Positions 6,001 through 9,000 of a stretch of 42,406 nt of DNA are shown in pieces. The DNA comes from a virus. Its lineage: Duplodnaviria; Heunggongvirae; Uroviricota; Caudoviricetes. Position 1 is the stretch's first letter. Each line of letters starts with the position of its first letter. The stretch covers positions 1 through 42,406 of IMG/VR virus record IMGVR_UViG_2534682160_000015; one strand, 5' to 3'. The position numbers are program-made.

Positions 6001-9000
6001 GAAAGGCACGTAAGAGGTGTTCACTGCTTCTAAAATTGCTATACTATTCATGTTGGTTTTTCTCCAAGGATTTACCGACAACCGAAGCCCTGACTGTTAC
6101 CGCAGTTGGGGCTTCAACTTTTCACTTCTTTAAAGTGCCTACCTTCTACAGTTGCTCTGAGATAAAAATTCTTATCTTTACCGTTTAGTGCTTCCCAAGC
6201 ATCAACAATGCACTTATTACAGATGTGGACTTCTCGATAACCAATAGCTTTCCTGTCAATATTAGTGAACATAACAGCTTCTTTATCTGTCAATGTGGAT
6301 GCATGACAGAAGTCGCAATCTATATAAGATACCTTCATACCGTTATCCCCTCTCTCTTCAGGCTGTCCATCACTCGCTTGTAAATCTCAGAGTTAACAGA
6401 TCGCCCGTTCTCTTCCGCCACCTTACGCACCAAATCAAATACTTCTTTAGGCCACCGCAAATTGAACTGCGGCATTTTGCTCATTCCTTTCATATTCACC
6501 TCACAATATAGGTCCACCGTGGACCTATTGAGAATATAGTAGAGTGCTTCTATCATGTCAATACACTAACTTGGGGTGATGGCATGGCTAGAGACGATCC
6601 GCACTTTAACTTCCGTATGCCTTTGGAAGTAAGAGAAAAATTGAAATTAAGAGCAGAGGCTAACGGAAGGTCAATGAACTCTGAGTTATTACAAATCGTT
6701 CAGGATGCTCTCTCAAAGCCATCATCAATTGTAGGCTATCGAGACGAAGCTGAGCGAGTCGCGGATGAGCAATCTGACGTTGTTAAGAAGATGGTCTTTG
6801 AAACGCTGAAAAATATTTATAGCAAAAGTAAGTTATAGGCTTATGACGTACAGTTAACCATATCGATATTGGCTCGCGTGATGACAAATGAAAAAAAGCA
6901 ATGGACTCACATTAAAACTTGACGGAACCACCCCTGGCCAGCTGTCAATGGCTAAGTTGGTCAAGTATATGTCTGCTCTCGTAGATCTATACGGTTCTGC
7001 AGATTCTGTTCACTTCGACTGTGTAAGTGAAGGATCGGCTGACTTAAATGCATGGGTCGATAATGATATTTGTTATAACGCTGTCATAGCAAGGGCCTCT
7101 CTCTCAGCCAAAGAGAAATCACCTGCGTATCAAAAAATTGTTAATTTACTGGAACATGATGGTTTTTCAGCGAAACTACTCGGACGAAACCACTCAACCA
7201 TTATCGCATTCCCGCGAGTAAAAAAGGAACCAATCCCTTTACTCATAACAAAAACGTCAGAAGTTCAAGGAAGGCTATACAGTGTTGGCGGAAAAGACAA
7301 CTCAATACCTGTGCGTATTGAGGGAGCCAACGGTGAAACATTCAAGTGCGAGGCAACCCCTGATTTGGCGGCAGCTCTTGGGTCCCATCTATTCAAATAT
7401 ATTAGGGTTAAAGGAGATGGGTGCTGGGAAAAAAAGAACAACAAATGGGAGCTAAAGAAACTAAAAATAACTTCATTTGTATTGCTCAAAAAATCATCAC
7501 TCAAGGATGCTATTAATGCTATCAAGCAAGTTCCTGGAGATCAGTGGTCCGAGGAACGCGATGTTGATTCAATCCTTAGGACTCTGAGGAAGATAAATTG
7601 CGAGTAATTTTAGATACCAATATTCTGGTATACCTACTATCAGATATAGAACACGATTATAGATTATCTGACCCTATACTTGGTTCTGAGATTCCAGATG
7701 CCAAAAGAAGAGCAGAAGCTCTTGTTGATCGAATAGATAACAAGAACGGGACAATCATCGTTCCAACTCCTGTATTGGCGGAGTTTTTAGTTGGAATCCA
7801 TAAAGATTACCAACAAGAAAAACTGAATGTTATCAAATCGTTATCGTGCTTCGAAACTGTATCATTTGATGAGTTGGCTGCTATTGAATGCGCATCGATA
7901 CCAACATTAAAAGAATTAAGGAAAATTAGCACAGAAGGTACAGCAAACAAAATTAAGTTTGACAGACAAATAATAGCAATTGCAAGAGCAATTAATGCTG
8001 ACGAGGTATGGACTCATGATAAGGGAGTGTTTGAGCGTTGCAAAAGTCTCAATATTCCTGTGTTCACATTATCATCAATAGAACCAATTCCGGTTCAAAG
8101 TCTCATGGAGTTCTTACACGATTCAGACGATCAGAGATTACACTAAAATATAATTTTTATGCATCCGTGATAATTACATCCGTCACGGATACATAAAGCT
8201 ATAGCCAAAAGTGGACAAACCTTTATCTCACTCCAAACCATCTGGTATCCTGCTCAAAACTAAGGAGGTTGGTGTGTTTGGTATATTAACGAGAAGCAAG
8301 ATAAAAAAATTAAGGGCAAAACTCGCCGAAACACAAAAACTGGCTTCACATTTTTACAAAATGAAATACGACGCTGAAGAGCGTGCATTCGTTGAGTTAT
8401 GCGATTTATCTATTCGTATGGGAGTAGAGCCAGATGTAGCGGCAAAAACTCAACAAGGCATTGATATACTTGCAGATGTTGTTTTAAACAGGCAATATGC
8501 GTTTTATCTAAACGAGAAGGCCATTCAGATTTACTCTCAAATCTTCCTCCTAGAAAAAAGAAGAGGAACTCACGATCGAGAAGAGTGGTTAAATGAAGTT
8601 GTTAAAAAATCTGGCTGGGAAGTTGTTTCATCAGAGCTACCTCTTATTTGTGCTGATTTAATCGAAGAGGCAAAAGAGCGTCTATCCGATGGCTAAACGA
8701 ATCCATCCGTGGATTACTAATTACTCCAGCTCCATTCCGCTTAGCGATGCCACAATCCCAGCCCTCGCTAAGCGCTGAAACTCTTCGTTTCCGACGGTAT
8801 CACGTATCGCTTTTACAGCAGCTTTATTTGCCATAAATCTGCGTTCCGCCGCCGCTAATGCACCATCACTTGCCCCAACATTAACTGCCTTTGTTGCCTC
8901 TTGGACAGCCTTTTCAATCGCGTAACGACTACTGCGGGATGCAGCTAACTTTTCTATCGTCCCTTTAGCTATAGATCCAGAAACAGCCCCCACAACACCG

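What the first reader, a model, noticed from the sequence alone, without database searches (positions are those of the whole stretch)
6494..6583. Complete immI control region with Mnt and Arc operators
The 90-bp divergent region between arc and mnt holds a perfect 17-bp Mnt operator palindrome and an Arc operator-like 21-mer in the arrangement recalled from P22. An extra Cys-rich gene (6114-6338) sits between arc and ant, which P22 does not have.
Basis: partly seen in the sequence, partly recalled or inferred. Interest (0 to 1): 0.35.

Follow-up and report, generated by a model that had tools for sequence, protein, structure and literature searches.

The report
P22-type immI switch with extra cassette gene
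This E. coli prophage carries an almost exact copy of the phage P22 immunity-I switch; the one addition is a small zinc-finger gene sitting in a swappable slot between arc and ant, and it weakly resembles the substrate-docking domain of the ClpX protease.

Summary
Window 6494-6583 is the 90-bp arc/mnt divergent region and matches P22 at 88 of 90 bases. The 17-bp Mnt operator (6510-6526) and the 21-bp Arc operator (6536-6556) are identical to P22. The face-to-face promoters Pant and Pmnt, the sar antisense RNA (Rfam 97 bits), ant, and the DNA-contacting N-termini of Arc and Mnt are all conserved. This part is already known biology.

The extra ORF (6114-6338, 74 aa) is a real gene: dN/dS is about 0.15 and four Cys are invariant. 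Its ATG overlaps the arc stop (ATGA) and its stop lies in the 3' end of sar. It has no promoter of its own, so it is a third cistron of the Pant operon.

It belongs to a tiny enterobacterial family, absent from 50,697 phage records. A survey of 120 related loci shows that the arc-ant junction is a cassette slot. The slot is bounded by the sar terminator and a conserved arc 3' end, and it carries at least 7 unrelated small genes. One of these is a clear free-standing ClpX zinc-binding domain. The window's gene resembles that domain weakly but consistently. A role as a ClpX N-domain decoy is inferred, not shown.

The parts
5106..5129 (-). Intrinsic terminator after ant (stem CCCAGC, loop, stem GCTGGG, then a T-run on the minus strand)
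   Evidence: Read directly from the sequence. It sits where P22 has its annotated ant terminator.
5149..6051 (-). ant, the antirepressor (300 aa from the ATG at 6051)
   Evidence: Pfam P22_AR_N (E 8e-45) and P22_AR_C (E 6e-30). 85% amino-acid identity to P22 Ant over all 300 residues.
6017..6045 (+). Psar, the promoter of the antisense RNA, placed by homology
   Evidence: Position transferred from the P22 annotation. The sequence differs from P22 at one base, 6022. The generic promoter scan did not pick it up.
6052..6119 (+). sar antisense RNA, complementary to the ant ribosome-binding region. Its terminator hairpin is at 6084-6115.
   Evidence: Rfam RF00262: 97.4 bits (gathering score 43), E 7e-20, full length 1-68. 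67 of 68 bases identical to P22.
6114..6338 (-). Extra cistron: 74-aa protein with four invariant Cys (C8, C11, C40, C43), called cargo family A here. It is a divergent ClpX-type C4 zinc finger candidate. Its ATG overlaps the arc stop (ATGA) and its stop lies inside the 3' end of sar.
   Evidence: ORF. Overlap and Shine-Dalgarno sequence GAGGGG lying within arc. dN/dS 0.15. Invariant Cys. Same position in all homologues examined. Zinc-finger evidence.
6335..6493 (-). arc (52 aa). Its C-terminus is ...SLKREGITV, where P22 has ...SFKKEGRIGA.
   Evidence: Pfam Arc, E 9e-27. 88% identity to P22 Arc over 49 aa, with residues 1-15 identical.
6510..6526 (.). Mnt operator, a 17-bp perfect palindrome identical to P22. 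Perfect symmetry extends to 6508-6528.
   Evidence: P22 annotation.
6528..6556 (+). Pmnt (-35 TTGAGA, 17-nt spacer, -10 TATCAT)
   Evidence: Promoter scan, 10 of 12 consensus positions. Same position as the annotated P22 mnt promoter.
6533..6561 (-). Pant (-35 TTGACA at 6561-6556, 17-nt spacer, -10 TATATT at 6538-6533). It drives arc, the extra cistron and ant.
   Evidence: Promoter scan, 11 of 12 consensus positions. Same position as the annotated P22 arc/ant promoter.
6536..6556 (.). Arc operator, a 21-mer identical to P22. It covers the spacers of both promoters and their -10 regions (all of Pmnt's, part of Pant's).
   Evidence: P22 annotation.
6584..6838 (+). mnt (84 aa)
   Evidence: Pfam Arc (E 6e-27) and Repressor_Mnt (E 5e-13). 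82% identity to P22 Mnt, with residues 1-13 identical.

Best explanation
The window holds a functional P22-type immunity-I (immI) switch in an E. coli P22-like prophage.

The switch. Pant (minus strand) and Pmnt (plus strand) face each other. Mnt would bind the 17-bp palindrome over the start region of Pant. This keeps arc, the extra cistron and ant silent in the lysogen. Arc is made first after infection and would bind the 21-bp operator between the hexamers of both promoters, shutting the burst off. sar RNA pairs with the ant ribosome-binding region and limits Ant translation. These roles are inferred from sequence identity with P22, where they were established experimentally. They were not measured here.

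The extra cistron. This locus differs from P22 by a third cistron inserted between arc and sar/ant. It has no promoter of its own, takes its Shine-Dalgarno sequence from the 3' end of arc, and starts at an ATGA overlap with the arc stop. It should therefore be translated together with Arc in the short Pant burst at infection and stay silent in the prophage (inferred).

The slot. The gene occupies a cassette slot bounded by the sar terminator and a conserved arc 3' end. In related prophages the same slot carries at least seven unrelated small genes (shown).

The product. The protein has four invariant Cys and is most likely a divergent free-standing ClpX-N-domain-type zinc finger. My probability for that fold assignment is about 0.6. 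The most likely function is to bind what the ClpX N-domain binds, or to bind that domain itself. This would transiently blunt N-domain-dependent ClpXP proteolysis while Ant acts. My probability for this function is about 0.25, and it is inferred only.
For: Switch:
- 88 of 90 bases of the control region and 67 of 68 bases of sar match P22. The flanking genes are only 80-88% identical at the DNA level (arc 129/147, mnt 196/246, ant 757/903).
- Both operators are exact.
- Promoter hexamers lie at the annotated P22 positions.
- sar scores 97 bits in Rfam.
- The DNA-reading N-termini of Arc and Mnt are identical to P22. Ant has both P22_AR domains.

Extra cistron:
- ATGA overlap with arc and a Shine-Dalgarno sequence inside arc.
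- No promoter-like or terminator-like site on the coding strand between Pant and ant.
- dN/dS 0.14-0.16 against the 81%-identical homologues.
- C8, C11, C40 and C43 are invariant down to 44% identity.
- Homologues in Citrobacter, Salmonella and metagenome contigs always lie in the order arc, ORF, ant. This holds even in immI regions with different operators.

Slot:
- Alignment A4 shows that homology breaks exactly after the sar terminator (GGGGCTTCA) and resumes at TCATACCGTTATCCCCTCTCTCTTCAGGCT.
- Seven cargo families were found in 120 IMG/VR loci.
- Wherever the upstream arc could be parsed (33 of 47 cargo-bearing loci; families A-F), Arc ends ...SLK[RK]EG[IV]x[VI] with a 4-nt overlap. The same arc allele carries family A, B, C or E.

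Zinc finger:
- All 7 family members hit Pfam zf-C4_ClpX (best E 8e-4).
- Cargo family F in the same slot is a clear ClpX zinc-binding domain (PF06689, 43 bits against a cut-off of 27; PDB 1OVX, E 9e-8).
- Family A against a profile of families D and F plus the E. coli ClpX domain gives hhalign probability 92%, E 7e-7, score 35.5. The maximum over 150 shuffles with the Cys columns held fixed was 23.3.
- The best Foldseek hit in the PDB for the AlphaFold model is the ClpX zinc-binding domain, 2ds5.
- The Phe of CxFC is invariant. It aligns with ClpX F16, which lies in the hydrophobic patch that overlaps the lambda-O binding site and is also bound by TF, SspB and RssB (PMC7804408).
Against: - No binding, transcription or expression was measured. 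Operator function rests on identity with P22.
- The Pfam hit for family A is below the gathering score (18.9 against 27 bits).
- The Foldseek match is not significant on its own (E 0.82, probability 0.63). The model is only moderately confident (mean pLDDT 65.8).
- Family A has a 9-residue insertion between the two CxxC knuckles relative to ClpX.
- CxxC...CxxC motifs are common, so the function could be unrelated to ClpX.
- The other cargo families in the slot (B, C, E, G) are not zinc fingers. The slot therefore does not imply one shared function.
- No association was found between cargo family and the ClpP-like gene that some relatives carry next to mnt.
Confidence: 0.85

Rival explanations
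1. The extra cistron encodes a generic small zinc-ribbon protein unrelated to ClpX. It could be a nucleic-acid binder or an early anti-defence or host-takeover factor. It would be placed in the Pant operon simply because that operon fires immediately on DNA entry.
For: Expression would be confined to the first minutes of infection, the window in which counter-defence genes typically act (timing inferred from the P22 circuit; my own knowledge). All ClpX-related scores for family A are sub-threshold or moderate. The slot also carries non-zinc cargo. Its GC content is 36% against 46% for the window, suggesting an imported gene.
Against: There is no hit in PADLOC or PHROGs, and no annotated relative. 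The profile-profile match to ClpX-type fingers greatly exceeds the Cys-fixed shuffles. The only structural neighbour with any support is the ClpX zinc-binding domain. A bona fide ClpX-domain homologue occupies the same slot in relatives.
Confidence: 0.3
2. The extra protein is a dedicated partner of the immI circuit itself. It could modulate or stabilise Ant or Arc, or act as a second antirepressor or specificity factor.
For: It is strictly linked to arc and ant in every locus found. It is translationally coupled to arc. Seven IMG/VR loci carry a second Arc-like ribbon-helix-helix gene next to the sar terminator, so circuit components can occupy the slot.
Against: The same arc allele works with four unrelated cargo families or, in P22, with none. 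Family A is also found with a quite different arc/mnt/operator type. Both facts argue against a co-evolved partner.
Confidence: 0.12
3. The ORF is a non-functional remnant of an insertion, and the immI region works exactly as in P22 with an inert spacer.
For: P22 and at least 53 sequenced phages function without it. The family is tiny: 7 clusters at 90% identity, and 5 representatives at 50% identity among 1.84 billion proteins.
Against: dN/dS is about 0.15. The frame is intact with four invariant Cys across members at 44-84% identity. The Shine-Dalgarno sequence and ATGA coupling are conserved. The gene is 100% conserved in 23 E. coli genomes.
Confidence: 0.03

Closest known systems
Immunity I (immI) region of Salmonella phage P22 (mnt, Omnt, Pmnt/Pant, Oarc, arc, sar, ant; record BK000583)
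   Same: Gene order and orientation are the same. The control region is 90 bp with 88 of 90 identical bases, and both operators are identical. The promoter hexamers match, sar is 67/68 identical, and an ant terminator is present. Arc, Mnt and Ant are 88%, 82% and 85% identical.
   Different: A 74-aa cistron is inserted between arc and sar/ant. The last residues of Arc differ (...REGITV here...KEGRIGA in P22). Downstream of mnt, a 239-aa ORF and a PIN-domain ORF replace P22 orf59a and sieA. The host is E. coli, with the prophage next to a tRNA-Arg gene in strain AST215.
The 'ant moron' of P22-like phages (Villafane et al. 2008, PMC2629481)
   Same: The region between gene 16 and the tailspike gene is described there as being in rapid genetic flux, with ten types in sixteen genomes. 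The window is another type of this region.
   Different: In the text I read (figures are not held), that paper treats variation of the region as a whole. It does not describe a defined slot between arc and ant with conserved junctions and translational coupling. The cargo gene here lacks its own promoter and should be silent in the lysogen, so it does not fit the classical moron definition.
N-terminal zinc-binding domain of ClpX (Pfam PF06689; PDB 1OVX, 2DS5)
   Same: The Cys signature is C-x-F-C ... [IL]-C-x-x-C-[IV], with a helix starting at the second knuckle. All family members hit the Pfam model weakly. hhalign probability is 92%. The best Foldseek hit is this domain.
   Different: The protein is free-standing with no AAA+ module. 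It has a 9-residue longer linker between the knuckles and an extra C-terminal tail of about 25 residues. Its Pfam score is below the gathering threshold. Zinc binding and dimerisation are untested.
arc-adjacent hypothetical genes of phages vB_SemP_Emek (JQ806763) and vB_EcoP-611R6 (ON470589) (phrog_11805), and other slot cargo (phrog_17642, phrog_7150, phrog_27312)
   Same: They occupy the same slot and have the same 4-nt overlap with arc. All are annotated only as hypothetical proteins or as PHROGs of unknown function.
   Different: Their sequences are unrelated to the window's protein (at most 19% identity). The window's family is in no PHROG and in none of 50,697 phage records.

Membership tests
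P22-type immI switch | Divergent mnt and arc-ant transcription units separated by a short control region | tested here: met
   arc starts at 6493 (minus strand) and mnt at 6584 (plus strand), leaving 90 bp, the same length as in P22.
P22-type immI switch | 17-bp symmetric Mnt operator over the Pant start region | tested here: met
   AGGTCCACCGTGGACCT at 6510-6526, identical to P22. It lies directly downstream of the Pant -10 hexamer (6538-6533).
P22-type immI switch | 21-bp Arc operator between the hexamers of the overlapping promoters Pant and Pmnt | tested here: met
   Located at 6536-6556 and identical to P22. Pant is at 6561-6533 and Pmnt at 6528-6556.
P22-type immI switch | Arc and Mnt ribbon-helix-helix repressors with the P22 DNA-reading N-terminal strand | tested here: met
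   Pfam Arc and Repressor_Mnt domains. Arc residues 1-15 and Mnt residues 1-13 are identical to P22.
P22-type immI switch | sar antisense RNA across the ant ribosome-binding region | tested here: met
   RF00262, 97.4 bits, 6052-6119 on the plus strand, abutting the ant ATG at 6051.
P22-type immI switch | Antirepressor Ant downstream of arc | tested here: met
   P22_AR_N and P22_AR_C domains; 85% identity to P22 Ant.
P22-type immI switch | Actual repression of Pant by Mnt, and of Pant and Pmnt by Arc | not testable with these tools
   Needs gel-shift or footprinting assays and transcription assays.
ClpX C4-type zinc finger (PF06689) | Score at or above the Pfam gathering threshold | tested here: not met
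   18.9 bits against a cut-off of 27 for the window protein. All 7 family members hit the model, but below threshold (best E 7.7e-4).
ClpX C4-type zinc finger (PF06689) | Four conserved Cys in CxxC...CxxC, with the CxFC and [IL]CxxC[IV] signature | tested here: met
   C8, F10, C11, I39, C40, C43 and I44 are invariant in alignment A3.
ClpX C4-type zinc finger (PF06689) | Profile-level homology to bona fide members | tested here: inconclusive
   hhalign probability 91.9%, E 6.9e-7. This is far above the Cys-fixed shuffles (35.3-35.5 against a maximum of 23.3). However, the profiles are shallow and the domain is short.
ClpX C4-type zinc finger (PF06689) | Treble-clef fold of the ClpX N-domain | tested here: inconclusive
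   AlphaFold mean pLDDT 65.8. The top Foldseek hit in the PDB is 2ds5_A, and 3 of the top 4 hits are ClpX zinc-binding domains, but E is 0.82 and TM 0.41/0.65.
ClpX C4-type zinc finger (PF06689) | Zinc binding and dimerisation | not testable with these tools
   Needs metal analysis and biophysical measurements.
Classical phage moron | Own promoter and terminator; expressed from the repressed prophage | tested here: not met
   No promoter-like site on the minus strand between Pant and the ORF, and no minus-strand terminator before ant. The start codon overlaps the arc stop. The gene is part of the Mnt-repressed Pant operon.

The most novel reading that the evidence does not exclude
The arc-ant junction of P22-like prophages is a dedicated cassette-exchange site. 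One boundary is the sar terminator. The other is a conserved arc 3' end that supplies the ribosome-binding site and an overlapping start codon. Any small gene dropped into the site is expressed in the antirepressor burst at infection. Three of the seven cargo families found, including the window's, are free-standing mimics of the ClpX N-terminal zinc-binding domain. They would act as decoys or poison subunits that transiently block N-domain-dependent ClpXP proteolysis, for example of a lambda-O-type replication initiator or of adaptor-delivered substrates, and so bias the infected cell toward lytic growth. That would be a phage-encoded inhibitor class for ClpX substrate docking. I found no description of such a class in the literature I could search.
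Probability: 0.2. Interest if true: 0.65.

Novelty: new variant of a known kind. Interest (0 to 1): 0.4.

Why it matters
The control region adds nothing new. It shows that the P22 immI operators, promoters and sar are held almost invariant (98%) across Salmonella and E. coli phages, while the proteins around them drift to 80-88% DNA identity.

The useful result is the slot. It is a precisely bounded, translationally coupled position in a textbook regulatory operon where unrelated small genes are exchanged. All of these genes are annotated as hypothetical.

If the zinc-finger cargo really mimics the ClpX N-domain, it would be a simple natural tool for switching off adaptor- and N-domain-dependent ClpXP degradation. 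It would also link antirepressor-driven lytic commitment to host proteolysis. The proteins are 60-74 residues long and the hypothesis is cheap to test.

Tried and rejected
- The first AlphaFold run, on a shallow alignment, gave mean pLDDT 50.6 and was discarded.
- A profile search of PDB sequences with family A gave only chance hits to T-cell-receptor alpha constant regions.
- Family A has no DNA or protein match in the phage collection, no PHROG, and no PADLOC hit.
- An exhaustive phmmer search of 1.84 billion representatives found only 5 relatives and none with annotation, so no function could be transferred.
- I tested whether cargo type correlates with the ClpP-like gene that some relatives carry after mnt. 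It does not: that gene occurs with families B, C, D and F and with empty slots.
- I considered a classical moron and rejected it, because there is no own promoter or terminator and the start codon is coupled to arc.
- I considered a spurious ORF and rejected it on dN/dS and the invariant Cys.
- Literature searches found nothing on genes between arc and ant, or on free-standing phage ClpX zinc-binding domains. The library does not hold most subscription-journal papers, so this absence is weak evidence.
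Full report
**1. What is in the sequence**

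The window is a P22-like prophage. It begins with a tyrosine integrase at 1-1158 and carries a tailspike with a P22 head-binding domain. Nearly identical copies occur in complete E. coli chromosomes; in strain AST215 the prophage lies next to a tRNA-Arg gene.

Around the finding, the minus strand carries three genes:
- ant (5149-6051)
- a 74-aa ORF (6114-6338)
- arc (6335-6493)

The plus strand carries mnt (6584-6838). The arc-mnt intergenic region is exactly 6494-6583, 90 bp.

**2. Check of the observation**

The 17-mer AGGTCCACCGTGGACCT lies at 6510-6526. It sits inside a perfect 10+1+10 palindrome at 6508-6528. The 21-mer ATAGTAGAGTGCTTCTATCAT lies at 6536-6556. Each occurs once in the window. 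Chance expectations are 0.07 and 0.00, even allowing three mismatches.

I aligned the region to the annotated P22 record BK000583. Both operators are identical to P22. The whole 90 bp differs at two bases:
- 6509 is T where P22 has C. This lies just outside the 17-mer and makes the palindrome longer here.
- 6575 is G where P22 has A. This lies in the mnt ribosome-binding region.

The consensus scan finds Pant on the minus strand: TTGACA at 6561-6556, a 17-nt spacer, TATATT at 6538-6533, matching 11 of 12 consensus positions. It finds Pmnt on the plus strand: TTGAGA at 6528-6533, a 17-nt spacer, TATCAT at 6551-6556, matching 10 of 12. These are the positions obtained by transferring the P22 promoter annotations.

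**3. The rest of the circuit**

- Rfam finds a full-length sar RNA at 6052-6119 on the plus strand (97.4 bits against a gathering score of 43). It starts at the base next to the ant ATG. It is 67/68 identical to P22, and Psar differs at one base.
- Arc is 88% identical to P22 Arc, with residues 1-15 identical. Mnt is 82% identical, with residues 1-13 identical. Ant is 85% identical over all 300 residues.
- The regulatory DNA and RNA (98% identical) are much better conserved than the coding DNA around them: arc 129/147, mnt 196/246, ant 757/903. This is what selection on operators, promoters and the antisense pairing would produce.

How the switch works follows from established P22 work (Susskind; Youderian; Vershon and Sauer; Liao, Wu, McClure and Susskind). 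I cite this from my own knowledge, and the references are listed in PMC2629481. Mnt holds Pant off in the lysogen. Arc shuts Pant and Pmnt off after an initial burst. sar limits Ant translation. None of this was measured here.

**4. The extra gene is real and belongs to the operon**

- Its ATG (6338-6336) overlaps the arc stop as ATGA. A GAGGGG Shine-Dalgarno sequence lies in the last arc codons. Its TGA (6116-6114) lies inside the 3' end of sar.
- No promoter-like or terminator-like site on the minus strand separates it from Pant or from ant.
- Against the 81%-identical homologues, dN/dS is 0.14-0.16.
- Across family members down to 44% identity, C8, F10, C11, I39, C40, C43 and I44 are invariant.
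- The family is very small: 7 clusters at 90% identity among 5.8 billion, and 5 representatives among 1.84 billion proteins. All named sources are E. coli, Citrobacter or Salmonella.
- It is in 23 of 5,426 complete E. coli genomes, always 100% identical and always beside arc.
- It is absent from 50,697 phage records at both DNA and protein level, and from PHROGs.
- In every homologous locus retrieved, the order is mnt, then divergently arc, the ORF and ant. This includes loci whose arc, mnt and operators are of a clearly different type.

**5. The position is a cassette slot**

Other E. coli prophages with the same immI carry different genes at the same place:
- an unrelated 73-aa gene (family B, phrog_11805);
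- a 57-aa gene (family C, phrog_17642, E. coli S88).

Family B is also found in phages vB_SemP_Emek and vB_EcoP-611R6.

The multiple alignment shows where homology breaks and resumes. All loci share the sar terminator up to GGGGCTTCA. They then diverge completely. They rejoin at TCATACCGTTATCCCCTCTCTCTTCAGGCT, which is the arc 3' end plus the overlapping start codon.

I scanned IMG/VR with a sar-terminator pattern and obtained 120 loci. In these, the ORF that ends at the terminator falls into the following groups:

| Slot content | Size | Loci |
|---|---|---|
| arc or an Arc-like ORF ends at the terminator (mostly empty slot, including all P22-type loci; 7 of these have a second Arc-like gene there) | - | about 66 |
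| Family D | 61-67 aa | 17 |
| Family C | 57 aa | 11 |
| Family B | 73 aa | 7 |
| Family E | 89 aa, hydrophobic N-terminus | 7 |
| Family A (the window's) | 74 aa | 3 |
| Family G | 80 aa | 2 |
| Family F | 60 aa | 2 |

Wherever the upstream arc could be parsed in a cargo-bearing locus, it ends ...SLK[RK]EG[IV]x[VI] with a 4-nt overlap, whatever the cargo. The same arc allele (...VMDSLKREGITV) is found with A, B, C or E. Empty P22-type loci end ...SFKKEGRIGA.

All 40 listed phage records of the 53 that match this immI have the P22-type empty slot; 13 were not listed. The cargo gene has 36% G+C against 46% for the window.

The general instability of the "ant moron" is published (PMC2629481). 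I found no description of this particular slot.

**6. What the protein may be**

- Pfam gives only a sub-threshold hit to the ClpX C4 zinc finger (18.9 bits; cut-off 27). However, all seven family members give that same hit.
- Cargo family F in the same slot is an unambiguous free-standing ClpX zinc-binding domain: PF06689 at 43 bits, and PDB 1OVX at E 9e-8.
- Family D carries the same CCFCG...[IL]CxxC[IV] signature. It shares phrog_5259 with F.
- A profile of family A aligns to a profile of D, F and the E. coli ClpX domain with hhalign probability 91.9% and E 6.9e-7. In 150 shuffles of the target columns the maximum score was 16.6. With the four Cys columns held fixed it was 23.3. The real alignment scored 35.3-35.5.
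- A second AlphaFold run reached mean pLDDT 65.8, with a helix starting at the second CxxC.
- Its best Foldseek match among 350,542 PDB chains is the ClpX zinc-binding domain 2ds5, and three of the top four hits are that domain. The match is not significant by itself (E 0.82).

These lines are individually weak but they agree. I put the fold assignment at about 0.6.

The ClpX N-domain is required for lambda-O degradation. It is also the docking site for SspB, RssB and trigger factor, through a hydrophobic patch that includes F16 (PMC7804408). The aligned Phe is invariant in family A.

A free copy made in the Pant burst could therefore compete for those ligands, or pair with the ClpX N-domain. 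This is inference only, and I put it at about 0.25. Rivals are:
- an unrelated zinc-ribbon function such as counter-defence (about 0.3);
- a partner of the immI proteins (about 0.12);
- an inert ORF (about 0.03).

**7. Verdict**

The control region is already-known biology in a new host.

The extra cistron makes this a new variant of the P22 immI operon. It is a three-cistron Pant operon with an exchangeable middle gene. The window's cargo is an uncharacterised Cys4 protein of probable ClpX-N-domain type.

Interest is low for the operators and moderate for the slot and its cargo.

Noticed in passing
window 6888-7607 (+) and 7598-8146 (+): Directly downstream of mnt on the same strand lie a 239-aa ORF (phrog_19868, no Pfam hit) and an overlapping 182-aa PIN-domain ORF (phrog_21691). 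They replace P22 orf59a and sieA. No terminator-like site follows mnt, so they may be co-transcribed from Pmnt in the lysogen. They are a candidate toxin or defence pair, but have no PADLOC hit.
   Followed up: partly
L010 2255-2791 and L012 2698-3234 (E. coli GN05476 and S88 prophages): Some related prophages carry a 178-aa ClpP-like gene, annotated 'ATP-dependent Clp protease proteolytic subunit', abutting the mnt stop. In the IMG/VR loci it occurs with cargo families B, C, D and F and with empty slots, so it has no clear link to the zinc-finger cargo.
   Followed up: partly
L004-L009, L011-L014: At least two further immI specificity types exist with different arc, mnt and operator sequences (Arc of 50 aa with Mnt of 82 aa; Mnt of 80 aa). 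They keep the same sar terminator and the same arc 3' junction. In L003 the central base pair of the Mnt operator is flipped, G where the window has C.
   Followed up: partly
L015, L025, L026, L047, L063, L087, L113 (IMG/VR): In seven loci the ORF next to the sar terminator is itself a 46-aa Arc-like ribbon-helix-helix protein, and a second arc-like gene lies about 250 bp further on. This looks like a tandem arc arrangement in the slot.
   Followed up: no
window 1475-2086 (+) and 2183-2653 (+): Two adjacent ORFs between the integrase and the tailspike match the N-terminal and C-terminal parts of one Acyl_transf_3 domain (profile positions 3-141 and 210-318). This is probably a disrupted O-antigen acyltransferase (serotype-conversion) gene.
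   Followed up: no
window 26179-26334 (-): Two adjacent phage-borne tRNA genes, tRNA-Thr (TGT) and tRNA-Asn (GTT).
   Followed up: no
window 2713-5049 (-): The tailspike has a P22-type head-binding N-terminal domain (E 3e-66). Beyond a weak Tail_spike_N match, the rest of the protein has no Pfam hit. Related prophages with the same immI carry other tailspike bodies.
   Followed up: no
PHROGs 5259, 6797, 12435, 20296, 3680: The free-standing ClpX-domain cargo (family F) matches several PHROG families of small phage proteins. Almost all are of 'unknown function'. This suggests that stand-alone ClpX-N-domain-like proteins are widespread and uncharacterised in phages.
   Followed up: no
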